Shown: piece by piece, positions 2,485 to 55,007 of the stretch
Layout of the letters: each line of letters begins with the position of its first letter
Numbering within the stretch: position 1 is the first letter of the stretch
From: Patescibacteria group bacterium
Lineage (GTDB): Bacteria; Patescibacteriota; Minisyncoccia; Phycocordibacterales; UBA1006
Reading direction: 5' to 3'
Assembly: GCA_020428645.1 (NCBI GenBank)
Contig: JAGQMN010000001.1
Location: 532-64,531 of the forward strand
Length of the DNA stretch: 64,000 nt
The notes under the pieces: model-generated
The model's input: the letters and a program-made list of their open reading frames with translations, nothing else
Databases searched by the model: none
Told to the model about the DNA's origin: nothing
Made by a program: the position numbers and the translations under genes

Positions 2485-2820
2485 ATGAACATCAACGCTA
2501 AAAAGTTGTTTGAATTGTTTCTCACACTCATGATTTTTTACGGTGTGTACTCACTATTTGATCGAGCTGCGCCAATTCTCGTTACAGAACCAAAGACCTT
2601 GTGGGTCGTTGTTCTCAGTTTGGTTGTATCAGGACTTCTCCTTCTCCTGTACGCTACTATGGTATCTTCGGGTGCACGTAAACAGTTGCAACACCGCGTG
2701 TCTGAACTTGAAGATGAACTTGAAACCAAAGAAGCCGAACTTCAGAATGCGTTTAAGGTAAAGCGTGTTGTTGAAGAAGAAGCAGAGGCCTCAATCCTCA
2801 AGGAAGAATCAAACGGCTAG
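2485..2820 (+). CDS. Hypothetical small membrane protein with C-terminal coiled coil (111 aa)
   Basis: Two hydrophobic helices followed by an E/K-rich heptad-like tail (ELEDELETKEAELQNAF). Confidence 0.45.
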   Translation: MNINAKKLFELFLTLMIFYGVYSLFDRAAPILVTEPKTLWVVVLSLVVSGLLLLLYATMVSSGARKQLQHRVSELEDELETKEAELQNAFKVKRVVEEEAEASILKEESNG

Positions 2821-2824
2821 TTGT

Positions 2825-3976
2825 ATGTCACAAAAAATTACTACAATTGAACACTACATTCTGTTTGATATTGATAGTGCGAGTATCGGTGGTGCTGTTG
2901 TACGTCACAGCAAGAATGCACGCGGTGATCTTGTTGAAAGCAAAGAGCTATTTTCTGTAAGAAAACCTATTACTAATGGAGAACCATATTCATTTGAACG
3001 CTTTTTTGAGAAAACTATTACAACATTAACATCAGTAGCAGATGAAGTGCATCTCCAAGCGTTGCTACCGATTTCTCAGGTGTACGTAAATGTTTCGACT
3101 CCATGGATGAGCAGTCAGAAACGTGTTGTACACCATGCACAGAAGAAGCCATACACCTTTACCCAAGAACTCGCTAATGCGATGGTTGTAGAAAGTACTG
3201 ATCAGACACACCATCACACTAGTAGTGCGTACCACGACCACACGGTTGAACTGATTGATAATCGTGTCATTGATGTGTACGCACATGGATACCCGGTACG
3301 TAATCCAATTGGTAAAGAACTCACCGAAGTCGATGTGCACATACTGGCGAGCGTTATGTCCGCAACAACTAAACAAGCCTTCACAGAAACGATACAATCA
3401 GTGTTTCATCATGAACCTGTGTATCTTTCAAATACTTTTGTGAACTATCAAACGACACTCGAATTACTCCCTGATACGAATAATAGTATTATTGTTGATA
3501 TGAGCGGGGAAGTAACTGATGTGCTCGTGGTACGCAATGATCACCTTGATCACATTGGATCTCTCCCTGTTGGTCTACACCACATGGTGCGCTCGCTCGC
3601 TGATCAATTACACGTTCCCTATGCAAAAGCACGATCACTCTTGAAACTCTCGCCTATACAGCACCTTGATGATGGGTACGTAGCATCACTCATACCTGCA
3701 TACACCACTGCGTTTAAGGTATGGTTCACAGCATTTTTTGATCTTCTCGATGAGTATGCCAAACATGGGATACTCAGCAATACCATTGTGTTAAAGGCAG
3801 ATGCTCAGTACGTAGCCTGGATTCAGGAACAATTACTCTCGTACGATCAATTACAAGAACACATGCACGCAGGTGCACGTCCTGAAATTATTACGCTCTT
3901 TCAAGCTCACGATACCACTTGTTTTCACGATAAAGAACTCGGTGTTTTTGATACGCTCATTGAAGAGTCAGCATAA
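2825..3976 (+). CDS. Hypothetical protein with an actin-like ATPase fold (PilM/FtsA-like)
   Basis: N-terminal motif HYILFDIDSASIGGAVV resembles the phosphate-1 loop of the actin/Hsp70 fold, and an internal IIVDMSGEVTDVLVV resembles the phosphate-2 loop. Start chosen at the ATG at 2825, just after the upstream stop. Confidence 0.4.
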   Translation: MSQKITTIEHYILFDIDSASIGGAVVRHSKNARGDLVESKELFSVRKPITNGEPYSFERFFEKTITTLTSVADEVHLQALLPISQVYVNVSTPWMSSQKRVVHHAQKKPYTFTQELANAMVVESTDQTHHHTSSAYHDHTVELIDNRVIDVYAHGYPVRNPIGKELTEVDVHILASVMSATTKQAFTETIQSVFHHEPVYLSNTFVNYQTTLELLPDTNNSIIVDMSGEVTDVLVVRNDHLDHIGSLPVGLHHMVRSLADQLHVPYAKARSLLKLSPIQHLDDGYVASLIPAYTTAFKVWFTAFFDLLDEYAKHGILSNTIVLKADAQYVAWIQEQLLSYDQLQEHMHAGARPEIITLFQAHDTTCFHDKELGVFDTLIEESA

Positions 3977-3991
3977 GAACGTAATACTGGT

Positions 3992-5305
3992 ATGGATGGC
4001 ATCAGAAGAAAAAATGGACAACCCGTTACAAGAACGAAGGACACTCGTTCTTTTTCACCTGATACTATTGTGCCCATAGAAAAAAAAGTACATGATGAAT
4101 ATCATAATAGTGAACAACAATCACACACACCTCGTCATTCGCGTGTACATGTACATACAACTCTTCAGCACATATATAAACGAGGTATCCGTTCGAAATG
4201 GTTTCGAAGAATACTGTTTGCGTTCCTGGTATGGGGTGTTATGGGATTCATCATTGGAGCAAACAATCGTACTAAGGTAACGATTCGTCCTCACATCGAG
4301 TACCTCGATCTCAATGAACAAGTAACTGTGTATCGATATCCACAGGAAGATCAGCTTGGTTTTGAGGTGATTGCTATAAGCGATGAAGTTTCTATCCCGG
4401 TTATTGCATCAGGAGAACGTCCTGTGTCTCGATACGCACAAGGTACGGTCACTATTTACAATGATTACAGTACAGAACCGCAACGTCTCTTACCAGAAAC
4501 ACGGTTTACGTCAGCGAGTGGTAAAGTATTTGTTCTTGGCAGTGAGGAGGTCATTATTCCTGGAAAAACAGATAGTCCTGGTACCGTGACAGCTATCCTC
4601 TATGCAACAGAACCAGGTGATGCCTACAATATTGATAGTACTGATTTTACGCTTCCAGGATTTGAAGAAGCAGGACTCACCGACAAGTACAACAGCATCT
4701 ATGCATTTTCGAGTACTCGGTTTGAGGGAGGGTTTACCGGTACTGAACCGTACGTAACCCCTGAACAAGTTGTTTCAGTGAATACTGAACTTGAACAAGA
4801 ACTCCGTGATCGACTTACTGTGCGACTCGTCAACGAGAAGACTAATGCGCTCATGTTGATTGATGGTAGTACTCGTGTAACACACGAGGATGTGTCGACT
4901 ATTTTTGATGATGAAAGTGCTACTGGACTCATGACATTACGTGGGACGATTATTGGTCTTGGTATCGGACGTGAACACCTTCTCAATTTTTTGGTGTCAC
5001 GGACGTTTAATTATCAATTTGTTGACCTTGTGACACTTGGTAACCTATCTATGTCATTACCGGTTCAGGATGTTAATTTTGAAACAGTATCTTCAATTCC
5101 CGTTACCATGATGGGTGCACCACTCTTTGAGTGGGTACTCGATGAATCAGATATAGCAACGTGGCTCACATCAGTGCCACGTGGTGAACTGGTGAATCAA
5201 CTACGTACACATAACGGTATTGATAGAGCTGAGGTTACCATACGACCACCGTGGCGTGGTCGTACCTCAGACGATGCAACCGATATCATTGTAACGTTTA
5301 ATTAA
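3992..5305 (+). CDS. Hypothetical single-pass membrane protein with a large extracytoplasmic domain (437 aa)
   Basis: Basic N-terminal region, one TM helix (ILFAFLVWGVMGFIIGA), then a long soluble domain. No motif I recognise. Confidence 0.5.
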   Translation: MDGIRRKNGQPVTRTKDTRSFSPDTIVPIEKKVHDEYHNSEQQSHTPRHSRVHVHTTLQHIYKRGIRSKWFRRILFAFLVWGVMGFIIGANNRTKVTIRPHIEYLDLNEQVTVYRYPQEDQLGFEVIAISDEVSIPVIASGERPVSRYAQGTVTIYNDYSTEPQRLLPETRFTSASGKVFVLGSEEVIIPGKTDSPGTVTAILYATEPGDAYNIDSTDFTLPGFEEAGLTDKYNSIYAFSSTRFEGGFTGTEPYVTPEQVVSVNTELEQELRDRLTVRLVNEKTNALMLIDGSTRVTHEDVSTIFDDESATGLMTLRGTIIGLGIGREHLLNFLVSRTFNYQFVDLVTLGNLSMSLPVQDVNFETVSSIPVTMMGAPLFEWVLDESDIATWLTSVPRGELVNQLRTHNGIDRAEVTIRPPWRGRTSDDATDIIVTFN

Positions 5306-23705: not shown

Positions 23706-23794
23706 AGACAATTAATATTCTACATTCCCATCTCTACAATAAGGTGGGTTTTTTATTATGTAAATTAAAAAAACCATTGTGATATACTATATCC

Positions 23795-25759
23795 ATGTCA
23801 AACGGGGAACAAGTCACCTACTTTGCAGAGACCGATTTTCGGAATAACCGCACGAAGTTTGGTATCAAAAACAAAGACCGTTCACGTCACGTCTACGTCA
23901 TCGGAAAGACGGGAATGGGGAAATCAACGCTCCTTGAAAATATGGCAGCGCAAGACATCCTTAATGGAGAAGGGATGTGTTTTATGGATCCCCATGGTTC
24001 AGCGATTGATACACTTCTTGAATACGTACCATCACATCGTGTGCGTGATATTGTGTACTTCGCACCTTTTGATACTGATTACCCTATTTCATTTAATGTA
24101 CTTGAAGCAGTTGAACCCGATCGACGCCACTTGGTTGTAGCTGGACTCATGGCATCGTTCAAGAAGATTTGGGTTGATGCCTGGTCTGCTCGTATGGAGT
24201 ACATTCTCTCAAACACCCTCCTTGCGCTCCTCGAATACCCGAATGCAACACTCCTTGGAGTCAATCGCATGCTCGCTGAGAAAGACTATCGCAATGATGT
24301 GATTAAACATGTGACTGATGCGTCAGTGCGTTCATTTTGGATTGATGAGTACAACAAATGGGATCCACGATACGCACGTGAAGCGGGGGCTGCTATTCAG
24401 AACAAAATCGGTCAATTTACGGCGAATCCATTGATTCGTAATATTATTGGGCAACAACACTCGTCCATCGATTTTCGAAAGATTATGGATGAGAAAAAGA
24501 TTCTCCTCGTAAACCTCTCGAAAGGACTCATTGGTGAATCCAATGGAAACCTTCTTGGGGGAATGCTCATTACCAAGTTGTTTCTTGGTGCTCTGTCGCG
24601 AGCCGATGTCGGTGCAACCAGGTTGAATCAACTCCCTGATTTCTTTTTCTTTGTGGACGAGTTTCAAAACTTTGCTAATGAATCGTTTGCTGACATTCTG
24701 TCTGAAGCACGTAAGTACAAGCTCAACCTTACGGTTGCTCATCAATACGTTGACCAAATGGAGGAATCAGTTGCATCGGCAATTTTTGGTAACGTGGGAA
24801 CGATGATCACCTTTCGTATTGGAGCAAACGATGCAGAAATCTTTGAAAAACAATTTGCTCCAACGTTTACTTCAGAAGACCTGGTGAACCTCGGTAAATT
24901 CCAGATTTACCTCTCATTGATGATTGACGGGATTGGATCTCGACCCTTTTCAGCACGCACCATTGCACCCGTTGAGCGACCACCTGTTTCTATGCGCGCG
25001 GAAATTATTCAATCATCGCGAGAACAGTTTGCACGACCACGGAAAGAAGTTGAAATGAGTATTACGGAATGGTACGAGCCAGTGAATAAACCTGAAAAAC
25101 GTACGTTTCGTAATGATGATGGGAGTATGCCAAAAGCGAATACCAACGCCACACCTTCAATATCACCCAAAAAAATTGAAAAACAGAGTTTCATTATTCC
25201 GAAGGGTGAACGAGATAATGGTTCTAGCCCTTTGAAAAAGGTCGCAAAAGAACTTGATGAAAAAGAAGCTGAACTTGAAATGAAGAAAATTGTTTCACCA
25301 AAGTTGAATAGCTTGCTTGATAAAATGGGAGGTGGTGAGGAAAAGAAAATTCTCCCAGAAGTTGTTGAAAATATACGCAAGCATGACGTAACATCAGAGC
25401 CACTTAAAAAAACAGGGAACGTTCAGACATCTGAAACAAAGATACCCGAATCGGTCACTCAACGTGCTGCCTCAGTCAATAAACAACAGCCAGCTACATC
25501 TGATCGCGGGGCAAAAGTAGATACCATGTCCTCTCTTCAAGAAGTTCTTAAAAAAGCTATGGGTGGGAAGCGTACTGTTCAAAAGCAGGTTCGCAAACAA
25601 CCGAACCAGTCTGGACCAACAATTCAACAACCTAAACAATCGAATCATGATACAACTCAACAACACAAACAAGATACAAGCACAATATCATCACCGCAAA
25701 CCAATACTGAACAAAAAAAAGAAGTACCAGAAGATGTACTTCGGGGTATTTTCAGTTAA
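23795..25759 (+). CDS. Type IV secretion coupling-protein-like ATPase (VirD4/TraD/TraG family), soluble, with a long low-complexity C-terminal tail
   Basis: Walker A HVYVIGKTGMGKST, Walker B FFFFVDEFQNF, and a downstream EARKYKLNLTVAHQYVDQ that resembles the coupling-protein ARKYG...(T/A)xQ motif. No N-terminal TM helix. The last ~230 aa are K/E/Q/T/S-rich and lack a domain I recognise. Confidence 0.55.
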   Translation: MSNGEQVTYFAETDFRNNRTKFGIKNKDRSRHVYVIGKTGMGKSTLLENMAAQDILNGEGMCFMDPHGSAIDTLLEYVPSHRVRDIVYFAPFDTDYPISFNVLEAVEPDRRHLVVAGLMASFKKIWVDAWSARMEYILSNTLLALLEYPNATLLGVNRMLAEKDYRNDVIKHVTDASVRSFWIDEYNKWDPRYAREAGAAIQNKIGQFTANPLIRNIIGQQHSSIDFRKIMDEKKILLVNLSKGLIGESNGNLLGGMLITKLFLGALSRADVGATRLNQLPDFFFFVDEFQNFANESFADILSEARKYKLNLTVAHQYVDQMEESVASAIFGNVGTMITFRIGANDAEIFEKQFAPTFTSEDLVNLGKFQIYLSLMIDGIGSRPFSARTIAPVERPPVSMRAEIIQSSREQFARPRKEVEMSITEWYEPVNKPEKRTFRNDDGSMPKANTNATPSISPKKIEKQSFIIPKGERDNGSSPLKKVAKELDEKEAELEMKKIVSPKLNSLLDKMGGGEEKKILPEVVENIRKHDVTSEPLKKTGNVQTSETKIPESVTQRAASVNKQQPATSDRGAKVDTMSSLQEVLKKAMGGKRTVQKQVRKQPNQSGPTIQQPKQSNHDTTQQHKQDTSTISSPQTNTEQKKEVPEDVLRGIFS

Positions 25760-27197
25760 ATTCTTTGTTCTCCTCCTTTTTATTTGTGTTCCTCATATAC
25801 TGCTTGCCCAAGTTGAGATTACTGAGGTAATGTATGATCACGAGGGTACCGATTCTGGTTTTGAATGGGTAGAAATCTATAATAGTGGAAGTAGTGATAT
25901 CGATATTGGATCGTGGTACTTTTTTGAAAATGACACGTACCACGGATTAACACCCGATGGATTTGTCTCGATCGGTGCGGGTGAACGTGCACTAATTGTT
26001 CAAAACCTTGAAAATATATATGCTGAATTTGGTTCATCACTTAACCTTGTGAAAAGTTCATTTTCGCTTAACAATACTGGCGAGACGATTGCGCTTGCTG
26101 ATCAGAATCGTACCACCCAAGATGAAATTACCTATTCAGCTGATGGCGGAGCGCTCGGTAATGGTAATAGCATACAACTTACAAACGGAATATGGATTGA
26201 AGCGTTACCTACACCAGGTAGTGTAAACGCAAGAGAAGGTGATCCTGGTGATACGAATAACGCGACAACATCCTCGTCTTCGACAAGTACAACAAAAAAA
26301 GAAGTAGTTGTTGATGACTACTACACTGGTTACCTTACCATAGAGAAGCAAGCAATCAGTGGTTCACCAACGAATATTGAAGCGTACGTTGTTCATACGC
26401 GTAATGGTCAAGATACAAAGCTCAAGAGGGGTGTCTTTTATCTTAATTTTGGTGATGGTTCTGTGTATACTTCGGACGAACGATTTGAAACACAACATGT
26501 GTACCAGTATCCTGGTGAATATCAGGTTGTTCTTGAATACTACCGGAGTATGCTTGCCCAAGAGGCAGGTGAAGATCCAAAGGTAATGATTAACAAACGC
26601 ATACAGGTACACGATCATGTTCTCTCGATTGTGGCTGTTGATGGTAGTGGTGGTGTTACCATTCACAATGGTGCATCCATACCTATTGATCTTGATGGAT
26701 GGAGTCTTGTATACGATAATCATACGTATACCTTTCCACGATACTTGATGCTTGCATCACAAGGAGAAGTGACCATTCCACGTACTATTCATAACCTGGG
26801 ATACGTACACGCTGGCAGTATTCGACTTTTGAATGAAATTGGTGAAATAATGCAGGTTGGTGTAGCAACACCACCCATTGCAATATATTCTGAACACGTA
26901 GAAGGGGATGATACCCTTGAAGAAGTACCTATCACCAGTGACGCAACTACAGCACTTGTGAATTTTTTGGCAGAACACCCCGATAAACAAGTTGTAGATT
27001 TTGGAGAGGCCTCACAGTCACAGAATCAAACTCAAGGCGATCAATCTACACATACGAGCCGCCTGTTTATTATGACACTTGTTGTGGGTGTTGTTGCACT
27101 CCTTCTTGTGCTCATTCGTGCACGTTACCGTACATCACAAATAGACGAACGAGGTGCTGAGCTTCAGGTAATTGGTGATATTGAATTAATAGAATAA
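25734..27197 (+). CDS. Lamin-tail-domain (LTD) protein with a C-terminal membrane anchor
   Basis: N-terminal signal/TM, then VEITEVMYDHEGTDSGFEWVEIYNSGSSDIDIGSWYF...LNNTGETIAL, which is an LTD signature. A second LTD-like segment follows (DGSGGVTIHNGASIPIDLDGWSLVYDN), and there is a C-terminal TM (LFIMTLVVGVVALLLVLI). Start set at the ATG at 25734, overlapping the upstream gene by 26 nt. Confidence 0.6.
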   Translation: MYFGVFSVKFFVLLLFICVPHILLAQVEITEVMYDHEGTDSGFEWVEIYNSGSSDIDIGSWYFFENDTYHGLTPDGFVSIGAGERALIVQNLENIYAEFGSSLNLVKSSFSLNNTGETIALADQNRTTQDEITYSADGGALGNGNSIQLTNGIWIEALPTPGSVNAREGDPGDTNNATTSSSSTSTTKKEVVVDDYYTGYLTIEKQAISGSPTNIEAYVVHTRNGQDTKLKRGVFYLNFGDGSVYTSDERFETQHVYQYPGEYQVVLEYYRSMLAQEAGEDPKVMINKRIQVHDHVLSIVAVDGSGGVTIHNGASIPIDLDGWSLVYDNHTYTFPRYLMLASQGEVTIPRTIHNLGYVHAGSIRLLNEIGEIMQVGVATPPIAIYSEHVEGDDTLEEVPITSDATTALVNFLAEHPDKQVVDFGEASQSQNQTQGDQSTHTSRLFIMTLVVGVVALLLVLIRARYRTSQIDERGAELQVIGDIELIE

Positions 27198-27209: not shown

Positions 27210-28535
27210 CTACTCTCTGGTAGTTTTTTCTTGTGCTTGTAACAGCAAGTTCTGATCCACGGTTTCAGTATCTGATACGGTTTCAGTTGGTTTTTGATTC
27301 ACCGTGATTCCAAGATCAAACGCGAGTTCTTGGACAATAAATTGCTCTTGGTAGTAAGTGAGCACCTCTTGTAGTGCGACGAAGGCCTTTTTATACTTAC
27401 CTCGTTCAATAAGATCCTCAACGTTTTTATACACTGCCACTTCATCAAAGGTCTCAGTGAGTGCGTAAACCCCCTCTTGAAGTGTAAGCTTTTGCTTTAC
27501 CTTCTTGATTTCCTTTTTTAGATCAAGAATCTCTTTCAATGAATCAATCTCATTTTCAAGATCATGTACATCAACCTGTTCAGTAGGTGATTTAACAACA
27601 TCAACCCGTTCAGTAGGTTGTTCTTTTACTGATGGTTGCGATGTTGGTTCAGCAGTATTCATATCTTGATGAATCTCTTCCTCTTCATCTTTCGTTAGTT
27701 CTTCTGAAACTGCATCTTCAAATGCTTCAATGTTTTTTACTTCTTCTTCAATACTTTCCAAGAGAGATTCCGCTGATGATACAGATACGTCCACGTATTT
27801 ACCATCTTCTTGGTGTGTAGGAGAAGATTCTTGTGTAGTTTCTTGTGATGTATTTTCAGCATTATCTTCCTGTATTTGCTGTGCATCCACCTCGTTTTCA
27901 GTATCCTGTATTTCAACAACATCTACTTCGTTTTCATCCGTTTGTACACCATCATCAGAAACTTTTTGTTTTTCAACAGTGGTAGTTACATGCTTGAGCG
28001 CCTCGGCATTTAGTTTTATGGTTGACTTAAGTTCAGCGTTTAGGACCAATGCATCTTCAGGGTGTTCTGATTTTACTTCATTGATACGTTCTGTTACCTT
28101 GTTGGTTTGTTTCTTGATGGTATCGGCTATTTGAATTTGAGTTACCTCGTCAAGATCATGTTGTGTTGCTAGTTCGGTTGCTTCACGAATACGTTTTTCC
28201 GTTCGTTTGATTTCGTAACTGATTTTCTTTTTGGTATCAAAGGTTGTAGCAAGCTTAATCTCTTCGTGTACAATTTTCACAGGGTAGAGCGTATCTCCAG
28301 GGAGTGCTTGTCCAGACGCGACATTCGAGAGCGATCCAACAACCAGAATAACAACAAATGCCATAGCTAACCCTCGTCGCATGAGAAATACTACATGATG
28401 ATACGGGCTCACCACAGGGGTATACGACAGCGCAAAAGATGTGAGGTGATTACGCATCTCATCTTTCTCGTATGAAGTCATTTTGATTGACTCAATGTCT
28501 CCTATGAATTTTTCTAGTCGATTGTTAGGTTTCAT
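27210..28535 (-). CDS. DUF5667-like membrane protein (putative anti-sigma-factor-like partner of the ECF sigma)
   Basis: One TM helix after a short cytoplasmic N-terminus, then a long E/K/T-rich extracytoplasmic region. It is co-oriented with the ECF sigma gene and overlaps it by 11 nt. Confidence 0.5.
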   Translation of the reverse strand: MKPNNRLEKFIGDIESIKMTSYEKDEMRNHLTSFALSYTPVVSPYHHVVFLMRRGLAMAFVVILVVGSLSNVASGQALPGDTLYPVKIVHEEIKLATTFDTKKKISYEIKRTEKRIREATELATQHDLDEVTQIQIADTIKKQTNKVTERINEVKSEHPEDALVLNAELKSTIKLNAEALKHVTTTVEKQKVSDDGVQTDENEVDVVEIQDTENEVDAQQIQEDNAENTSQETTQESSPTHQEDGKYVDVSVSSAESLLESIEEEVKNIEAFEDAVSEELTKDEEEEIHQDMNTAEPTSQPSVKEQPTERVDVVKSPTEQVDVHDLENEIDSLKEILDLKKEIKKVKQKLTLQEGVYALTETFDEVAVYKNVEDLIERGKYKKAFVALQEVLTYYQEQFIVQELAFDLGITVNQKPTETVSDTETVDQNLLLQAQEKTTRE

Positions 28536-29049
28536 ATTCTTCTAAGATTTCGCGAAGTCGTTTGAGTCCGCGGTGGAGGTATACTGATACCGTTTTAGGT
28601 TTCATATCCAAGGTGTGTGCAATTTCCATAATTGAAAAATCGTGCATGAACCTTAGGTTGATGATTTCTCTCGTTGTTTCTGGTAACTGATGAAGAAGGG
28701 TAATTGCTTTCTCACCATCAATTTTATCGACCATACGCGTCTCGTGATCGTCGTGTAGATAGTCGTTGTATGATCCGGCACTAAAGTCTTCCACTAGGAT
28801 TGGCTTCTTTTTTCGGTATCCGTCAATGATGAGGTTGTTGGCAATTCGGTACAAGAGCGGTCGCTCGTTTTCGATGTCTTGTTCTGCGATAATGTATTCC
28901 CAAAACTTCATAAAGGTGTCCTGGGTAATATCGAGCGATCGTGAGCGATTTCGTGTTTTTACCATGCAAAAACGAAAGATATCGTCAGAGTACTTTTCGT
29001 AGTACTCTATGAACTGTTCAGTATACTGTTGTTTGTCTTCGTCTTTCAT
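28525..29049 (-). CDS. RNA polymerase sigma-70 factor, ECF subfamily
   Basis: Region 2 (DITQDTFMKFWEY...LYRIANNLIIDGYRKKK) and region 4 (REIINLRFMHDFSIMEIAHTLDMKPKTVSVYLHRGLKRLREIL). Confidence 0.8.
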   Translation of the reverse strand: MKDEDKQQYTEQFIEYYEKYSDDIFRFCMVKTRNRSRSLDITQDTFMKFWEYIIAEQDIENERPLLYRIANNLIIDGYRKKKPILVEDFSAGSYNDYLHDDHETRMVDKIDGEKAITLLHQLPETTREIINLRFMHDFSIMEIAHTLDMKPKTVSVYLHRGLKRLREILEEYET

Positions 29050-51111: not shown

Positions 51112-53070
51112 ATGAAGCGTTTCCTTTCACAACTTATCGAGATATTGGTACAACCTCTTGTTCCTGCTTGGCAGAAAGAGGCGCCTTTGTCTCAGGAAGT
51201 TATTGGAACAGCACACTTCGATAATCAGCATTACTTTTTTGTTCGTGATGGCGACAAGGTTTTTCTCGTGAGTGATACAGATACCTATGTTTATCGACAG
51301 AATGTGTGTTTCTCTCGGATTATGACGAGGCACATTCCAAACATGTGTGACCTTGATGCGGTAACCTTACCAAACGGAGAGCATGCCATGGTGTGTACGG
51401 TCAAACTCAAGCGAGGGTACAAAACTGTGTATCTTACTTCACAAGACACTCGTCACTTTAAGGCGTGGTCAATGGTACGTAATCCAAACGGACATGCGAC
51501 AAAAATTATTGTTCATGCAGCTAATCAGATAGCACTTGTAACCTCAATTAATGGTGAGATTTGTTATCGCGATCTTGATGTACACAACCGAAATGTTGAA
51601 TACCACACAACACCGCTTGTACCACGACACGATTCGTTTGATCATAGTCCACTGCGTGTAGTTGGTGTATTTGATCTACCTGACGGGGTGTTTGTGCTCT
51701 ACGATACATCGTACGAAATGCGTGGGTTCGTGACTCACCGGTTTGGCGCGGCACTTCTTGCCCACGGAAACCTTGGTCACTGTCACTGGCGAGCGTACTT
51801 TGATGAGGTGCCATTCTGGGATTATTTTGTTTCTAAAAAAGAAAACGAACACCTCTCACTCTCTGCTATTAGTGCGTACCACCGTGGAGATACCATTCAT
51901 GTCTACTTTTATGACTGCCTGAACCGAGATGTGTATACGCTCGATCTTCACGAACCGTACTCACGTCGTGATCCACATCCCGACAAGGCAATCTTGCGAA
52001 AGTATGTACACAATCCAATTTTGAAACCAAATGAAGACCACGCCTGGGAATGTTACGCGACATTCAATCCAACCGCACTTCAGATTGGTAACACAACACA
52101 TCTCCTCTACCGGGCTGAAGGTTCAGCAGGTCTTTCGGTGATTGGCTATGGCTCCAGCTATAATGGGGTTACCTTTGATCGTTTACCTGATCCAATATAT
52201 GTTCCAACGATGGACTTCGAGGGAGTGAACTTGTCGCCTGACATGATACGATTATTGCGAAAACGTTCGACTAGTTTTAAATCCGGATATAACCACTATC
52301 CAACTGATTACCATGGATACCGTTGGCACGGTGTTGAGGATCCACGTATGACCGAGATGGAAGGTCGAATCTACATGATTTATTCCGCGTATAATGGCTA
52401 CCAGATGGCGCGACCTGCAATTACCTCAATTGATACAAACGATTTTCTGAATCACCGCTGGAACTGGGCGGTTCCACAGGTGATGACCGAACAGGCGTAT
52501 GCATGGGGGCAGGGGAATAAGAACGTCGTTCTTCACCCGGAAAAGGTAAATGGTAAGTATGTAATTTTCCACCGCATATGGCCACACATCCGGATCGATT
52601 ACGTTGATAATCTCGAATTTGGTCCTGGTAAAAAGTACCTCAAAGAGCTTGCACGCATCGAGGCTCGTGGGGATTCGTGGGATAGTAACCGCGTTGGTGT
52701 TTCTTCCGCTCCTATTTTGATTGATGAGGGGTGGCTGATGATTTACCAAGGATCGGGTTCGCAAGATCGTCGCTATAAAGTTGGTGCTATGATTCTCGAT
52801 CGATATGATCCATCAAAGGTACTGTACCGCAGTGGACAACCAATCCTTGCACCAACTGAATGGTACGAAAACGACAACAAATCCGGCGTTGCGTACCCTT
52901 GTGGAGCGGTTGTTCGAGATGGTACTCTGTACGTGTACTACGGAGCATCAGACAAGTACGTATCGGTAGCAACGGCACCTCTTCGTGAATTTATTGATAA
53001 GCTCAAACATGATGCGTACCAAAAACCAGAACTTACCAAAAGAATCGGTATCGACGACCTATGTATATAA
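51112..53070 (+). CDS. GH130-family glycoside hydrolase/phosphorylase domain protein with a ~290-aa N-terminal extension
   Basis: The C-terminal half carries NPILKPNEDHAWECYATFNPTA and GVEDPRMTEMEGRIYMIYSAYNG, the GH130 beta-mannoside-phosphorylase catalytic-Asp region. The N-terminal 290 aa are unassigned. Confidence 0.7.
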   Translation: MKRFLSQLIEILVQPLVPAWQKEAPLSQEVIGTAHFDNQHYFFVRDGDKVFLVSDTDTYVYRQNVCFSRIMTRHIPNMCDLDAVTLPNGEHAMVCTVKLKRGYKTVYLTSQDTRHFKAWSMVRNPNGHATKIIVHAANQIALVTSINGEICYRDLDVHNRNVEYHTTPLVPRHDSFDHSPLRVVGVFDLPDGVFVLYDTSYEMRGFVTHRFGAALLAHGNLGHCHWRAYFDEVPFWDYFVSKKENEHLSLSAISAYHRGDTIHVYFYDCLNRDVYTLDLHEPYSRRDPHPDKAILRKYVHNPILKPNEDHAWECYATFNPTALQIGNTTHLLYRAEGSAGLSVIGYGSSYNGVTFDRLPDPIYVPTMDFEGVNLSPDMIRLLRKRSTSFKSGYNHYPTDYHGYRWHGVEDPRMTEMEGRIYMIYSAYNGYQMARPAITSIDTNDFLNHRWNWAVPQVMTEQAYAWGQGNKNVVLHPEKVNGKYVIFHRIWPHIRIDYVDNLEFGPGKKYLKELARIEARGDSWDSNRVGVSSAPILIDEGWLMIYQGSGSQDRRYKVGAMILDRYDPSKVLYRSGQPILAPTEWYENDNKSGVAYPCGAVVRDGTLYVYYGASDKYVSVATAPLREFIDKLKHDAYQKPELTKRIGIDDLCI

Positions 53071-55007
53071 CCAGACGATCAGATCACAACCCGTTTATCA
53101 GACCGAACGAAGAAAAGCACTGGATGTCCTACGCAACCTTCAACTGGTCACCATGGCACGATGAAGAAACACATACTATTCATGCGTTATACCGTGCTAT
53201 GACGAAACCTGACCTCCTCGCATCAGGTCCGTCTTTTAGTGTGTCTTCAATTGGTTATACCTATAGTAACGATGAGGAACACTTCACTCACCACGAACAG
53301 TTTATTTTTTCAGAGGAAGAGTGGGAACGGTATGGGTGCGAAGATCCACGTGTGACGAAAATCGGTGATACCTACTACATTTTCTACACAGCACTCTCAA
53401 CCTATCCTTTTTCAGCTGAGGGTATTAAAGTTGCTGTTGCAACTACCAAGGATTTCAAAACGATTGACGAAAAAAAATTAGTAACTCCATTCAACGCAAA
53501 GGCGATGACACTCTTTCCAGAGAAAATAAATGGCAAATTTACTGCGCTCCTTACCGTTGATCCCGATAAACCACCGTCAAAGATTGCATTCATCCAGTTT
53601 GATTCTGAAGAACAAATCTGGGATCAGGGCTACTGGCATAATTGGTATGCGAACATCGACGACCATATCTTTGATCCACGAAAACGTGATGACGATCATT
53701 GTGAGATTGGTGCTGCACCGGTGTGGACTGATGAGGGATGGCTTCTTGTGTATTCACATATTCAGCACTATTTTAATGAATCTGAGCGAGTATTTGGTAT
53801 AGAAGCGCTGCTTCTCGACCACGATGACCCAAAAAAGATTCTTGGTAGGACAACTGGGCCCATCCTTGTCCCAGAGAAAACCTATGAAAAAGAAGGTCAG
53901 GTACACAACATTACGTTTCCATCAGGTGCGCTGCTTCATGGTGATCGTCTCGACATCTACTATGGTGGAGCAGATTCAGTATGTTGTATGGCAACTGTCA
54001 ATCTACACCATCTCTTGGACAGTATGAATATAGAGAAACGTAAAGAGCACATTGTTCGCTACGCCGGTAACCCAATTTTGGAGCCAATTCGTGAGAACGA
54101 ATGGGAAGCAAAACTGGTCTTCAATCCAACCACCGTCGATATCGGTGAAAAAACCTATATTGTGTACCGTGCTATGTCACAGGACAACACCTCGTACATG
54201 GGAGCTGCGGTGACTACCGATGGCTACACCATTGATGAACGTTTTTCTGAACCAATCTACGTTCCACGTATGGATTTCGAGATGAAGAAATCACATCCAA
54301 CAGGGAACTCTGGATGTGAGGACGGTCGTGCAACGGTCATCGGCGACACCCTCTACATGTTTTACACCGCGTACAATGGGGTGGATGCTCCCAGGGTTGC
54401 TTTTTCATCAATTTCATTGAACCATTTCGAGGCAAAGAACTGGAATGCATGGTCAGAACCACAGCTGGTAACGCCAGATGGAATAGATGACAAAGATGCC
54501 TGCCTCCTCGCTGAAAAAATTAGAGACGAGTACGCGATCTTTCACCGCATCAAACACCATGTGTGTTTTGACACGGTACCTGAACTCGATTTTTCAAAAC
54601 ATCGATTGAATAAGTGTATTCCATTAATTGGCCCACGAACTGGGATGTGGGACGGACTGAAGGTTGGTATTGCTGGTCCCCCTATTAAGACTGATGCAGG
54701 ATGGTTACTGTTGTACCACGCAGTATCAACTGATAAATACTATCGCGTTGGCGCGATGTTGATGGAGCTCGATAATCCAGGTAACATCATCGGACGTACG
54801 ACTGATTTCATTCTCGAACCCGAAGAACGGTGGGAACTTGAGGGTGAGATCAACAAAGTTGTCTTCCCGTGTGGTGCCTCGATTCGTGGTGATGAACTCT
54901 TTATCTACTACGGTGGAGCCGATACCGTGGTTGGGGTAGCAACGACAAAGCTCTCATGGCTACTTGACGTATTGACCTGGCAACGTGATTCAGACAATTG
55001 GTCGTAA
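53061..55007 (+). CDS. Tandem double GH130-domain protein
   Basis: Domain 1 has NPFIRPNEEKHWMSYATFN...GCEDPRVTKIGDTYYIFYTA. Domain 2 starts at about nt 54,033 with NPILEPIRENEWEAKLVFNPT...GCEDGRATVIGDTLYMFYTAYNG. The gene overlaps the upstream GH130 gene by 10 nt. Confidence 0.7.
   Translation: MYITRRSDHNPFIRPNEEKHWMSYATFNWSPWHDEETHTIHALYRAMTKPDLLASGPSFSVSSIGYTYSNDEEHFTHHEQFIFSEEEWERYGCEDPRVTKIGDTYYIFYTALSTYPFSAEGIKVAVATTKDFKTIDEKKLVTPFNAKAMTLFPEKINGKFTALLTVDPDKPPSKIAFIQFDSEEQIWDQGYWHNWYANIDDHIFDPRKRDDDHCEIGAAPVWTDEGWLLVYSHIQHYFNESERVFGIEALLLDHDDPKKILGRTTGPILVPEKTYEKEGQVHNITFPSGALLHGDRLDIYYGGADSVCCMATVNLHHLLDSMNIEKRKEHIVRYAGNPILEPIRENEWEAKLVFNPTTVDIGEKTYIVYRAMSQDNTSYMGAAVTTDGYTIDERFSEPIYVPRMDFEMKKSHPTGNSGCEDGRATVIGDTLYMFYTAYNGVDAPRVAFSSISLNHFEAKNWNAWSEPQLVTPDGIDDKDACLLAEKIRDEYAIFHRIKHHVCFDTVPELDFSKHRLNKCIPLIGPRTGMWDGLKVGIAGPPIKTDAGWLLLYHAVSTDKYYRVGAMLMELDNPGNIIGRTTDFILEPEERWELEGEINKVVFPCGASIRGDELFIYYGGADTVVGVATTKLSWLLDVLTWQRDSDNWS

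What the first reader, a model, noticed from the sequence alone, without database searches (positions are those of the whole stretch)
23795..27197. Soluble T4SS coupling-protein-like ATPase translationally overlapped with a double lamin-tail-domain membrane protein: putative DNA-handling module
The ATPase has Walker A and B boxes plus the coupling-protein-type ARKY(K/G)...(A/T)HQ region, but lacks the N-terminal TM anchor of VirD4/TraD. The next gene starts 26 nt inside it. That gene encodes a protein with a clear lamin-tail domain (VEITEVMYDHEGTDSGFEWVEIYNSGS...LNNTGETIAL), a second LTD-like domain and a C-terminal TM anchor. LTD domains are typically found in extracellular nucleases and DNA-binding surface proteins. 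Pairing with a DNA-translocase-like ATPase suggests a DNA uptake, secretion or tethering system not organised like classical competence or conjugation loci. No VirB-type partners and no relaxase are nearby.
Basis: partly seen in the sequence, partly recalled or inferred. Interest (0 to 1): 0.65.

Follow-up and report, generated by a model that had tools for sequence, protein, structure and literature searches.

The report
TM-less coupling ATPase plus surface protein
A tiny-genome Patescibacteria chromosome carries a two-gene operon: a very strongly conserved relative of conjugation 'coupling' ATPases that lacks a membrane anchor, followed by a fast-evolving surface protein made of three Ig-like domains. 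The pairing recurs in about a third of related genomes, but nothing found here shows that it handles DNA.

Summary
Window 23795-25759 encodes a 654-aa VirD4/TrwB-type ATPase. It passes the Pfam cut-offs for TrwB_AAD_bind and TraG-D_C, its best structural matches are Cagbeta, DotL and TrwB, and it has no transmembrane segment. Window 25734-27197 overlaps it by 26 nt and encodes signal peptide, LTD, PKD-like domain, LTD-like domain, TM helix and a short cytoplasmic tail. The window is housekeeping chromosome, with no VirB or relaxase genes.

The ATPase is the Paceibacteria "short form" of the orphan T4CP homologues already counted across Patescibacteria (PMC12102498). Its N-terminal 440 aa are 64-88% identical between species. 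It ends in a basic disordered tail with a conserved peptide, KEVPEDVLRxIL. An LTD orthologue lies directly downstream in 26 of 81 loci (median gap 4 nt), in several different flanking contexts. Most relatives lack it, though, and LTD-PKD-LTD proteins also occur elsewhere.

The LTD ectodomain is strongly acidic (pI about 4.1-4.4), which argues against direct DNA binding. My best reading, mostly inferred, is a membrane-recruited translocation or coupling ATPase with an accessory surface adhesin or anchor, serving an apparatus encoded elsewhere. The DNA-handling interpretation is only partly supported. I rate it a new variant of a known kind, of moderate interest.

The parts
23712..23748 (+). Intergenic signals upstream of the ATPase gene: a terminator-like hairpin with a T-run (23727-23748) after the formyltransferase gene, overlapping a promoter-like TTAATA-17-TACAAT. 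Together with the convergent gene downstream, this suggests a separate two-gene transcription unit.
   Evidence: Consensus scan. These are pattern matches only. Promoter-like sites are no more frequent than in shuffled sequence (11 found versus 11.3 expected).
23795..25759 (+). Gene for a 654-aa soluble VirD4/TrwB-type (T4CP-like) ATPase, NCBI MCA9351799.1.
   Evidence: ORF. Pfam PF10412 29.6 bits and PF12696 27.1 bits, both above cut-off. Closest PDB sequence match is TrwB at E 4.7e-5. Foldseek best matches are Cagbeta, DotL and TrwB. Accession.
23903..23926 (+). Walker A motif, GKTGMGKS (aa 37-44).
   Evidence: invariant in 15 homologues. It aligns with the TrwB P-loop.
24116..24490 (+). All-alpha domain inserted in the nucleotide-binding domain (aa about 108-232). 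It is basic: pI 9.3.
   Evidence: AF2 model helices 108-232 lie between strands 86-89 and 236-240. The Pfam TrwB_AAD_bind match spans aa 25-343. Charge.
24641..24664 (+). Walker B motif, FFFFVDEF (aa 283-290).
   Evidence: V287, D288 and E289 invariant. It aligns with TrwB LFIDEL.
24707..24745 (+). ARKYKLNLTVAHQ, a T4CP-type arginine/glutamine motif (aa 305-317).
   Evidence: It aligns with TrwB KGRKAGLRVVAGLQ.
25085..25756 (+). C-terminal tail (aa 431-654), largely low-complexity, rich in K, S, E, T, Q and P, with net charge +11 and pI 9.7. Sequence conservation drops from 0.81 to 0.21 of column identity at about aa 430. Disorder is inferred from composition for all but aa 431-440.
   Evidence: The AF2 model covers only aa 1-440; its pLDDT falls below 50 over the last residues modelled, 431-440.
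25715..25756 (+). Conserved C-terminal peptide KKEVPEDVLRGIFS. The family consensus is KE[VI]PE[DE][VL]L[RK]x[IL]L.
   Evidence: Present in most of the 81 orthologues whether or not an LTD gene follows. A strict regular expression finds it in 58 of 81.
25734..25759 (+). 26-nt overlap between the 3' end of the ATPase gene and the 5' end of the LTD gene, with the LTD frame at +1.
   Evidence: In 25 orthologous pairs the junction has a median gap of 4 nt, 19 of 25 are at most 20 nt, and 8 of 25 overlap.
25734..27197 (+). Gene for a 487-aa type I membrane surface protein with the order LTD, PKD-like, LTD-like, TM. NCBI MCA9351800.1 is called 29 aa longer.
25734..25808 (+). N-terminal signal peptide, MYFGVFSVKFFVLLLFICVPHILLA, with a predicted cleavage site before QVEITEV.
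   Evidence: Hydrophobicity scan. Homologues carry a small residue plus A or S at the equivalent position before the LTD. Cleavage is inferred.
25809..26213 (+). Lamin-tail domain 1 (aa 26-160), strongly acidic: net charge -18, pI 4.1.
   Evidence: Pfam LTD E 5.8e-23, best stretch aa 25-135. AF2 pLDDT is above 90. Foldseek matches the lamin A/C Ig fold at TMt 0.63-0.64. Charge.
26316..26615 (+). PKD-like beta-sandwich domain (aa 195-294).
   Evidence: Weak PKD and PKD_4 hits at aa 234-267. Homologues carry precomputed PF00801 and PF18911. AF2 strands 196-293. Foldseek matches PKD domains 4xed and 4jgu.
26616..26864 (+). Second, divergent LTD-like beta-sandwich domain (aa 295-377).
   Evidence: Second LTD stretch in Pfam. 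A second LTD hit is precomputed in orthologues. AF2 strands 297-375.
27054..27134 (+). C-terminal transmembrane helix (aa 441-467).
   Evidence: Kyte-Doolittle mean 2.83. AF2 helix 441-472.
27135..27194 (+). Short cytoplasmic tail ending in GDIELIE. Close orthologues end in G[DE]IE[LI]IE, and distant ones end in a looser acidic-hydrophobic [FY]x[IL][IE][DE].
   Evidence: Only 7 of 5553 ORFs in the loci have this terminus, and 5 of them are the LTD proteins.

Best explanation
This is a two-gene operon. It encodes the Paceibacteria 'short form' of the chromosomal, vertically inherited, orphan VirD4-like (T4CP) ATPase family of Patescibacteria, together with a fast-evolving surface protein.

**Shown**
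- The ATPase has an intact P-loop motor with an inserted basic all-alpha domain.
- It has no TM anchor.
- It has a basic, low-complexity C-terminal tail of about 220 aa that ends in a conserved amphipathic peptide. Disorder of the tail is inferred from composition.
- The downstream gene overlaps it. Its product has a signal peptide, an acidic LTD-PKD-LTD ectodomain, one TM helix, and a short cytoplasmic tail with a conserved acidic-hydrophobic end.

**Inferred**
- The ATPase assembles as a T4CP-like ring at the cytoplasmic face of the membrane. It lacks its own anchor, so it is recruited by protein contacts: its C-terminal peptide docks on a lineage-wide partner, and where the LTD protein is present, that protein's cytoplasmic tail supplies a membrane tether in trans.
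- The ATPase uses ATP to hand a macromolecular substrate (nucleic acid or protein) to an envelope-spanning apparatus encoded elsewhere. The most likely candidate is the relaxase-less, MPF-FATA-type T4SS that most Patescibacteria carry.
- The LTD-PKD-LTD ectodomain acts as an accessory, lineage-variable extracellular adhesin or spacer, not as the DNA-binding element.
For: **The ATPase is T4CP-like**
- Pfam PF10412 and PF12696 score above their cut-offs, and TrwB is the closest PDB sequence.
- Foldseek's top hits are Cagbeta, DotL and TrwB at E 7e-9 to 1e-7.
- The catalytic residues are invariant.

**Essential-like conservation**
- The ATPase is 64-88% identical across species-level genomes, whereas the partner is only 23-45% identical.
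- It is retained in genomes of about 640 kb with the same synteny as the window.

**The two genes are linked**
- An LTD orthologue lies directly downstream on the same strand in 26 of 81 loci.
- The junction has a median gap of 4 nt, and 8 of 25 pairs overlap.
- The pair persists while the flanks change, from Mur-RsmI-DUF4015 ... Epimerase/GT1, to RecR-DnaB ... antisigma-sigma-YchF, and others.
- LTD-positive loci are scattered across the ATPase tree.

**Membrane proximity of the family**
- 51 of 149 top representatives are long forms. The five inspected begin with an N-terminal TM helix followed by about 350 aa. Precomputed Pfam assigns that region to DUF8128 in P0252 and its tandem paralogue.

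**Docking elements**
- The C-terminal peptide of the ATPase is conserved regardless of LTD presence.
- The LTD protein has a conserved cytoplasmic end.

**A nucleic-acid substrate is plausible**
- The AAD has pI 9.3 and the tail has net charge +11.

**Literature**
- PMC12102498 reports 5,713 VirD4-like T4CP homologues in 2,918 of 3,035 Patescibacteria genomes. Only 148 are near virB4, while VirB4 is present in 2,417 genomes.
- The same paper notes that T4CP genes far from virB4 are not unusual.
Against: - No physical or co-evolutionary evidence for an ATPase-LTD contact was obtained.
- 55 of 81 ATPase loci lack an LTD gene nearby, and some LTD orthologues lack the tail motif.
- LTD-PKD-LTD proteins also occur away from the ATPase.
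- No T4SS gene lies within 10 kb of any of the 81 ATPase genes. Only one T4CP/VirB4-like hit was found per locus.
- In S. epibionticum the T4SS is essential, but the t4cp homologue was reported as not essential (PMC12102498, citing Wang 2023). Wang et al. found no recognisable coupling protein in that T4SS locus (PMC10633639).
- T4CP homologues are found in more genomes than VirB4.
- Part of the adjacency could be inherited synteny among fairly close relatives.
Confidence: 0.4

Rival explanations
1. The pair is a self-contained DNA (or RNA) uptake, secretion or tethering device that works independently of a T4SS. The LTD ectodomain captures extracellular nucleic acid, and the T4CP-like hexamer pumps it across the membrane.
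For: - T4CPs belong to the FtsK/HerA DNA-pump superfamily.
- The AAD and the tail are basic.
- LTD and PKD domains are recurrently fused to secreted DNases (PMC4486849, PMC8289736).
- Patescibacteria lack nucleotide synthesis and must import nucleic acids (PMC11665869; bioRxiv 10.64898/2026.06.21.733656).
- T4CP homologues occur in more genomes than VirB4 (PMC12102498).
- The two genes are tightly coupled.
Against: - The LTD ectodomain is strongly and consistently acidic: pI 4.1-4.4 for LTD1 and net charge -39 for the whole ectodomain.
- The partner has a single TM helix, and no channel-forming protein is encoded in the operon.
- About two thirds of ATPase loci have no LTD gene.
- LTD-PKD-LTD relatives sit next to lipase-like giants, pilMN or unrelated genes.
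- Foldseek finds only generic Ig, adhesin or scaffold folds such as RbmA, PKD and lamin Ig.
Confidence: 0.15
2. The two genes are neighbours but functionally independent. The ATPase has a cytoplasmic or envelope housekeeping role of its own. The LTD-PKD-LTD protein is simply one of many variable surface adhesins of Patescibacteria that happens to be inherited next to it.
For: - Most ATPase loci lack the LTD gene, and the C-terminal peptide of the ATPase is conserved regardless.
- The LTD family occurs in several other contexts.
- The 80 loci are fairly close relatives (64-81% ATPase identity), so shared gene order may partly be inheritance.
- Other conserved neighbours (DUF4015 in 53 loci, GT1 arrays in 44, RsmI in 31) are equally or more frequent.
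Against: - Adjacency survives at least five different flanking arrangements.
- The junction is nearly always 20 nt or less, or overlapping.
- In the window's clade, all the usual envelope neighbours are gone from the 64 kb, but the LTD gene stays.
- The conserved cytoplasmic terminus of a surface protein implies an intracellular binding partner.
Confidence: 0.25
3. The ATPase is an FtsK-like chromosome or division translocase. It is recruited to the divisome by its tail peptide, which loosely resembles the FtsZ C-terminal peptide D[IV]PxFLR that follows a disordered linker. The envelope and dcw-type neighbours would reflect that role.
For: - The layout of motor, long disordered linker and conserved terminal peptide fits this idea.
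- Neighbours in many loci are Mur ligases, MraY, MurB and SecA.
- One source annotates a homologue as 'DNA segregation ATPase FtsK/SpoIIIE-like'.
- Conservation is very high, as for a core process.
Against: - Pfam FtsK_SpoIIIE matches only the P-loop, at 12.2 bits against a cut-off of 24.
- There is no gamma domain and there are no N-terminal TM helices.
- The peptide resemblance is recalled from memory, is offset by one residue, and was not tested.
- TM7x is reported to have its own ftsK (PMC10768705).
- Fold matches favour T4CP.
Confidence: 0.07
4. The pair belongs to a mobile element or an anti-phage defence system, as a HerA- or mad8-like ATPase.
For: - PADLOC mad8 matches at E 3e-17 and HerA models match weakly.
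- phrog_5156 matches at E 4e-54.
- Homologues at 20-40% identity occur on plasmids and in Bacillus phages.
- A 33% homologue sits beside an integrase and a Replic_Relax protein.
Against: - The window is core chromosome with no GC anomaly: DnaK, DnaJ, CysRS, L21, RecR and DnaB upstream, and sigma factor, YchF, RNase J and TopA downstream.
- The same synteny is seen in genomes of about 640 kb.
- Only 4 hits were found among 2.9 million viral contigs.
- The gene is vertically conserved at 64-88% identity.
- No partner defence genes are present.
Confidence: 0.03

Closest known systems
Type IV coupling proteins (VirD4 / TrwB / TraD / Cagbeta / DotL)
   Same: - It shares the P-loop nucleotide-binding domain with an inserted all-alpha domain, and the Walker A, Walker B and R...Q motifs align with TrwB.
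- These proteins are its best structural matches.
- Like F-TraD and DotL, it has a C-terminal extension ending in a conserved peptide. In those proteins the extension docks adaptors (from general knowledge of those systems).
   Different: - It has no N-terminal two-helix TM domain.
- It is not linked to VirB4, VirB6 or a relaxase.
- It is a vertically inherited chromosomal gene, far more conserved than typical T4SS parts.
- It scores far below the NCBIfam equivalog cut-offs for TraD and CD1115.
Patescibacteria orphan T4CP homologues (Quinonero-Coronel et al. 2025, PMC12102498), including the long DUF8128-T4CP forms
   Same: - It belongs to the same family. The ATPase domains are 45-77% identical, the genes are chromosomal and almost never near virB4, and no function is assigned.
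   Different: - The window protein is the short form. It lacks the N-terminal TM helix and the DUF8128 domain of about 350 aa.
- It carries a different, conserved C-terminal peptide.
- The LTD partner is not mentioned in that paper.
HerA / FtsK / VirB4 ATPases
   Same: - It belongs to the same ASCE P-loop superfamily. HerA 4d2i and VirB4 4ag5 are significant fold matches.
   Different: - It has no HAS-barrel (HerA), no alpha or gamma domains or TM helices (FtsK), and no VirB4 N-terminal domain.
- The Pfam DUF87 and FtsK_SpoIIIE hits are limited to the P-loop and fall below their cut-offs.
Bacterial lamin-tail-domain (PF00932) surface or secreted proteins, including LTD/PKD-bearing extracellular DNases
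   Same: - It has a clear LTD (81.8 bits) plus a PKD-like domain, is secreted, and is anchored in the membrane.
- LTD and PKD are the same accessory modules found on DNaseI-family enzymes (PMC4486849).
   Different: - It has no nuclease or other catalytic domain.
- Its ectodomain is very acidic.
- It has a C-terminal TM helix and a conserved cytoplasmic tail.
Surface adhesins of Gram-positive conjugation systems (e.g. PrgB of pCF10)
   Same: - This is a functional analogy only: a multi-Ig-like surface protein encoded with a T4CP-type ATPase in a monoderm. Gram-positive T4SSs use membrane proteins with large extracellular domains (PMC12857230).
   Different: - No sequence or specific fold relation was found.
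- It has no LPXTG motif.
- No T4SS locus is present.

Membership tests
T4CP (VirD4/TrwB/TraD) | FtsK/HerA-superfamily P-loop NBD with intact Walker A and B motifs | tested here: met
   GKTGMGKS at aa 37-44 and FFFFVDEF at aa 283-290, invariant in homologues and aligned to TrwB.
T4CP (VirD4/TrwB/TraD) | All-alpha domain inserted in the NBD; matches to the family's Pfam models above the gathering score | tested here: met
   PF10412 scores 29.6 against a cut-off of 20.5, over aa 25-343. PF12696 scores 27.1 against 22. AF2 helices span 108-232. Top Foldseek hits are Cagbeta, DotL and TrwB.
T4CP (VirD4/TrwB/TraD) | N-terminal transmembrane domain anchoring the hexamer | tested here: not met
   No hydrophobic segment: the maximum Kyte-Doolittle mean is 1.23. 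Walker A starts at residue 37.
T4CP (VirD4/TrwB/TraD) | Genetic association with a T4SS (VirB4 etc.) and/or a relaxase | tested here: not met
   None was found in the 64-kb window. No second T4CP/VirB4-like ATPase lies within 10 kb in any of 81 loci. Across the phylum only 148 of 5,713 are near virB4 (PMC12102498). A T4SS elsewhere in the genome could not be checked.
T4CP (VirD4/TrwB/TraD) | Couples DNA or protein substrates to a secretion channel (function) | not testable with these tools
   Needs biochemistry or genetics.
NCBIfam TraD / CD1115 VirD4-like equivalogs | Score above the curated equivalog cut-off | tested here: not met
   conju_CD1115 scores 42 against a cut-off of 250. SXT_TraD scores 41.7 against 366.
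HerA | N-terminal HAS barrel and a DUF87 match above cut-off | tested here: not met
   DUF87 scores 20.5 against a cut-off of 23.2, and covers only aa 26-68. Only two short strands precede the P-loop.
FtsK/SpoIIIE | FtsK_SpoIIIE motor match, N-terminal TM helices and a gamma domain | tested here: not met
   PF01580 scores 12.2 against a cut-off of 24, and covers only aa 21-50. No TM segment.
Lamin tail domain proteins (PF00932) | LTD Ig-like beta-sandwich above the Pfam cut-off | tested here: met
   81.8 bits against a cut-off of 34.3, in two stretches. The AF2 domain matches lamin A/C 1ifr and 3gef at TMt 0.63-0.64.
LTD-bearing extracellular nucleases / DNA-binding surface proteins | A nuclease or recognised nucleic-acid-binding domain; a surface suited to binding DNA | tested here: not met
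   No domain other than LTD and PKD was found. The ectodomain has net charge -39 and pI 4.4, and the family median for LTD1 is pI 4.1. Actual binding was not tested.
Anti-phage defence (MADS mad8 / HerA-based systems) | Presence of the partner defence genes; island context | tested here: not met
   There is an ATPase-domain match to mad8 (E 3e-17), but the neighbours are housekeeping genes.

The most novel reading that the evidence does not exclude
The short-form ATPase and the single-pass LTD-PKD-LTD protein may form a previously unrecognised, T4SS-independent envelope machine of Paceibacteria. In effect it would be a 'split' coupling protein: the membrane and extracellular part is supplied in trans, and the machine moves nucleic acid or protein across the membrane of these nucleotide-auxotrophic epibionts. 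It could be the missing route for acquiring host nucleic acid.
Probability: 0.12. Interest if true: 0.85.

Novelty: new variant of a known kind. Interest (0 to 1): 0.5.

Why it matters
**What is already known**
- Patescibacteria make up a large share of bacterial diversity, yet how they take macromolecules from their hosts is unknown.
- Their T4SS is essential in Saccharibacteria but lacks a recognisable coupling protein and relaxase (PMC10633639).
- VirD4-like genes are found in 96% of genomes, almost always away from virB4, with no role assigned (PMC12102498).

**What this window adds**
- It defines a concrete subfamily: anchor-less, extremely conserved, and carrying a basic low-complexity tail (inferred disordered) with a conserved terminal peptide.
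- It gives a recurrent, translationally coupled surface partner whose conserved cytoplasmic end is a testable docking site.
- It identifies the usual genomic setting in cell-envelope loci.

Together these turn 'orphan T4CP of unknown role' into specific interaction and localisation experiments. If the pair proved to be a stand-alone translocation device, it would be a new type of envelope machine. If not, it is still a useful marker for how T4CPs were re-used in reduced genomes.

Tried and rejected
1. **Programmed frameshift or transcriptional slippage fusing the two proteins.** An A8 run (25712-25719) lies just upstream of the overlap, and the LTD frame is open from 25563. However, most orthologous pairs have a small gap instead of an overlap, and the LTD frame is closed upstream in them, e.g. 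L001. Rejected.
2. **A hairpin sequestering the LTD start codon (25721-25742).** The scan flagged it, but RNA folding of 25700-25770 gives -13 kcal/mol with z = -1.13, which is not better than shuffled sequence. No claim is made.
3. **A split gene.** I tested whether the DUF8128 N-terminal domain of the long forms is encoded separately near the short form. An HMM of five N-terminal domains found nothing in the window or in any locus, even at E<=10.
4. **Usual neighbours elsewhere in the window.** HMMs for DUF4015, GT1, MurD, epimerase and Wzy found none in the 64 kb. The RsmI HMM gave only one marginal hit (E 6e-4) to a short ORF.
5. **Phage or plasmid origin.** There are only 4 viral-contig hits. 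Plasmid and phage relatives are at most 40% identical and are themselves mostly orphan genes on non-mobilizable replicons.
6. **The FtsZ-like tail-peptide idea.** The only FtsZ fragment in the loci (L052) has no comparable C-terminus, and no FtsK was found in the loci by motif search. Both results are uninformative.
8. **Generic fold matches for the LTD protein.** Whole-chain Foldseek hits for the LTD model are generic multi-Ig proteins and give no functional lead.

Full report
**1. Observation**

The ORF at 23795-25759 (+) encodes 654 aa. A second ORF, open from 25563, ends at 27197.

The ATG at 25734 gives a 487-aa product and exactly 26 nt of overlap. An alignment of 22 homologues places their N-terminal signal peptides at this start, and JGI and ENA call the same product. 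NCBI's annotation uses an upstream start (516 aa, MCA9351800.1; the ATPase is MCA9351799.1).

The ATPase motifs are as follows:

| Motif | Sequence | Residues |
|---|---|---|
| Walker A | GKTGMGKS | aa 37-44 |
| Walker B | FFFFVDEF | aa 283-290 |
| R...Q motif | ARKYKLNLTVAHQ | aa 305-317 |

Their core residues are invariant in 15 homologues: G37-T45, V287-Q291, A305-L310 and A315-Y318. The Walker B and R...Q stretches line up with TrwB LFIDEL and KGRKAGLRVVAGLQ. There is no hydrophobic segment anywhere in the ATPase: the maximum 19-residue Kyte-Doolittle mean is 1.23.

**2. What the ATPase is**

- **Pfam.** TrwB_AAD_bind scores 29.6 bits (cut-off 20.5) over residues 25-343, and TraG-D_C scores 27.1 bits (cut-off 22). 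DUF87/HerA and FtsK_SpoIIIE match only the P-loop and fall below their cut-offs.
- **NCBIfam.** The TraD and CD1115 VirD4-like models match weakly, far below the equivalog cut-offs.
- **PDB by sequence.** A 15-sequence profile finds TrwB as the only real relative (E 4.7e-5).
- **Structure.** An AF2 model (pLDDT 70, pTM 0.74) shows a RecA-like core with an all-helical insertion at about 108-232. Its best Foldseek matches are the T4CPs Cagbeta, DotL and TrwB (E 7e-9 to 1e-7, TM about 0.5). HerA comes close behind and VirB4 next.

After residue about 430, conservation collapses from 0.81 to 0.21 mean column identity. What follows is a K/S/E/T/Q/P-rich, basic tail (net charge +11, pI 9.7), which I infer to be disordered from its composition. 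It ends in a peptide, KEVPEDVLRxIL, that is conserved in most of the 81 orthologues. The all-alpha domain is also basic, with pI 9.3.

**3. What the partner is**

Pfam gives LTD at E 5.8e-23 in two stretches, plus weak PKD hits. Orthologues carry precomputed LTD-PKD-LTD annotations. The AF2 model has this layout:

| Segment | Residues |
|---|---|
| Signal peptide | N-terminus |
| LTD | 27-157 (pLDDT above 90) |
| Disordered S/T linker | after the LTD |
| PKD-like sandwich | 196-293 |
| Second LTD-like sandwich | 297-375 |
| Short conserved juxtamembrane helix | before the TM helix |
| TM helix | 441-472 |
| Cytoplasmic tail ending GDIELIE | about 20 residues |

Foldseek matches the lamin A/C Ig fold and PKD domains individually. 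Otherwise it finds only generic multi-Ig adhesin or scaffold proteins.

Close orthologues end in G[DE]IE[LI]IE. Distant ones end in a looser acidic-hydrophobic terminus, and a few have no tail at all.

The ectodomain is strikingly acidic. LTD1 has net charge -18 and pI 4.1 (family median -15, pI range 4.1-4.4), and the whole ectodomain has net charge -39.

**4. Context in the window**

The window is ordinary Patescibacteria chromosome at about 41% GC, with no compositional break. Gene order around the pair is:

- **Upstream:** AlaRS, RpoA, DnaK, DnaJ, CysRS, L21, RecR, DnaB, an EamA transporter and a formyltransferase.
- **The pair.**
- **Downstream:** a convergent DUF5667 membrane protein and an ECF-type sigma factor, then YchF, RNase J, TopA, DprA and SerRS.

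No VirB-type gene or relaxase was found among the 34 ORFs scanned against Pfam. A terminator-like hairpin follows the formyltransferase gene, and the downstream gene converges on the pair, so the two genes look like a separate operon (pattern matches only). Two near-complete genomes of about 640 kb carry the same synteny.

**5. Is the pair conserved?**

A scan of one genome per species found at least 589 species with an orthologue, and 80 loci were fetched (64-81% identity).

*From the ATPase side*
- An LTD orthologue lies immediately downstream on the same strand in 26 of 81 loci, and nowhere else in those loci apart from one tandem paralogue.
- The junction has a median gap of 4 nt. It is at most 20 nt in 19 of 25 pairs and overlaps in 8.
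- The pair persists while both flanks change. The arrangements include Mur ligases-RsmI-DUF4015-ATPase-LTD-epimerase/GT1, RecR-DnaB-...-ATPase-LTD-antisigma-sigma-YchF, and several others.
- LTD-positive loci are scattered over the ATPase tree. This suggests an old linkage with repeated loss.
- In the window, every other usual neighbour (DUF4015, GT1, RsmI, MurD, epimerase, Wzy) is absent from the 64 kb, but the LTD gene stays.

*Against an obligate pair*
- 55 of 81 loci have no LTD gene within about 10 kb.
- From the LTD side, two distant full-length relatives are ATPase-adjacent (P0158, P0154). Four are not: P0166 follows pilM/pilN-like genes, P0155 and P0159 sit beside giant PGAP1/LCAT lipase-like proteins, and P0152 is elsewhere.

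The ATPase evolves far more slowly than its partner: 88% versus 45% identity to the nearest relative.

**6. The wider family**

- Against 1.84 billion representatives there are 22,124 hits at E<=1e-3 and 5,852 at E<=1e-30.
- 51 of the top 149 representatives are long forms. They have an N-terminal TM helix and a domain of about 350 aa before the ATPase, precomputed as PF26449 DUF8128.
- One locus has two long forms in tandem next to SecDF, again without a T4SS.
- The short form is not a split gene.
- Outside the phylum, relatives at 20-40% identity occur as orphan genes. They are mostly on non-mobilizable plasmids (Streptomyces, haloarchaea, Sulfitobacter) and in large Bacillus phages.
- A 33% relative lies on an integrase plus Replic_Relax element. 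This is consistent with descent from conjugative T4CPs.
- PMC12102498 already counted 5,713 VirD4-like homologues in 2,918 of 3,035 Patescibacteria genomes. Only 148 are near virB4, VirB4 is in 2,417 genomes, and the authors stated that exaptation 'cannot be ruled out'.
- Wang et al. found no recognisable coupling protein in the essential Saccharibacteria T4SS locus.
- None of these papers mentions a lamin-tail partner.

**7. Mechanism**

*Shown*
- The motor is intact and T4CP-type.
- It has no anchor of its own.
- Its AAD and tail are basic.
- It has a conserved terminal peptide.
- Its partner is an operonic type I membrane protein with a conserved cytoplasmic end and an acidic Ig-like ectodomain.

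*Inferred*
- The ATPase forms a ring at the membrane and is recruited by protein contacts: its own C-terminal peptide to a lineage-wide partner, and the LTD protein's tail as a tether in trans.
- The ring passes a macromolecule to an apparatus encoded elsewhere, most plausibly the phylum's relaxase-less MPF-FATA T4SS.
- The ectodomain acts as an adhesin or spacer, not as a DNA binder.

I give this 0.4.

*Rival explanations*

| Rival | Probability |
|---|---|
It is weakened by the acidic ectodomain, the lack of a channel protein and the non-obligate pairing. | 0.15 |
| Functionally independent neighbours | 0.25 |
| FtsK-like divisome translocase | 0.07 |
| Mobile element or defence system | 0.03 |

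**8. Comparison and novelty**

It works like a T4CP, but it fails two defining features of membership: the TM domain and linkage to a T4SS or relaxase. It is best filed as a T4CP-derived, TM-less subfamily within the already noted Patescibacteria orphan T4CPs.

The following are, as far as the searched literature shows, not described:
- the short form
- its tail peptide
- the recurrent translationally coupled LTD-PKD-LTD-TM partner
- the envelope-locus setting

I rate it a new variant of a known kind, with interest 0.5.

Noticed in passing
window 56159-63988 (+), runs to the end of the window: A giant ORF of at least 2609 aa. It combines a PPDK_N ATP-binding domain, five PEP-utilizers 'mobile' swivel domains and a fragment of UDP-GlcNAc 2-epimerase. 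This is an unusual multi-swivel architecture.
   Followed up: no
window 51112-53070 and 53061-55007 (+): Two tandem, overlapping proteins of about 650 aa. Each has a C-terminal GH130 (mannoside phosphorylase) domain and an unannotated N-terminal half of about 350 aa.
   Followed up: no
L093 5581-8001 and 8001-10985: Two tandem long-form paralogues of the ATPase (806 and 994 aa). Each has an N-terminal TM helix and DUF8128 (PF26449) before the T4CP-like domain, and they sit next to SecDF and not a T4SS. 51 of 149 family representatives have this N-terminal domain. No paper in the library mentions DUF8128.
   Followed up: partly
L095 2140-6404; L096 5001-9713; L087 3053-7533: LTD-PKD-LTD relatives that are not next to the ATPase lie beside giant secreted PGAP1/LCAT lipase-like proteins (764 and 1075 aa). 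In one case the relative lies directly after pilM/pilN-like type IV pilus genes.
   Followed up: no
L001-L080, upstream of the ATPase: In 53 of 81 loci a membrane-anchored DUF4015 putative glycoside hydrolase (about 411 aa) lies just upstream. Arrays of 2-6 GT1 glycosyltransferases follow downstream in 44 loci, with RsmI, Mur ligases and MraY nearby. None of these is in the window.
   Followed up: partly
window 27210-29049 (-): A DUF5667 membrane protein (anti-sigma-like) and an ECF-type sigma-70 factor converge on the LTD gene. The same arrangement follows the pair in L001, L012, L029, L097 and L098.
   Followed up: no
window 25712-25719: An A8 run sits immediately upstream of the gene overlap, and the LTD reading frame is open from 25563. 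A +1 shift would fuse the two proteins. The overlap is not conserved in orthologues, so this is probably coincidental.
   Followed up: yes
window 24332-24757 (-) and equivalents in the loci: Antisense ORFs inside the ATPase gene form 'conserved' clusters across 34-40 loci (clusters 3 and 4). This is an artefact of the very high conservation of the sense strand, not evidence of genes.
   Followed up: yes
window 2765-5305 (+): A 403-aa protein with a weak FtsA/PilM-type actin-like hit is followed by a 437-aa protein with no Pfam match. These may be type IV pilus assembly genes.
   Followed up: no
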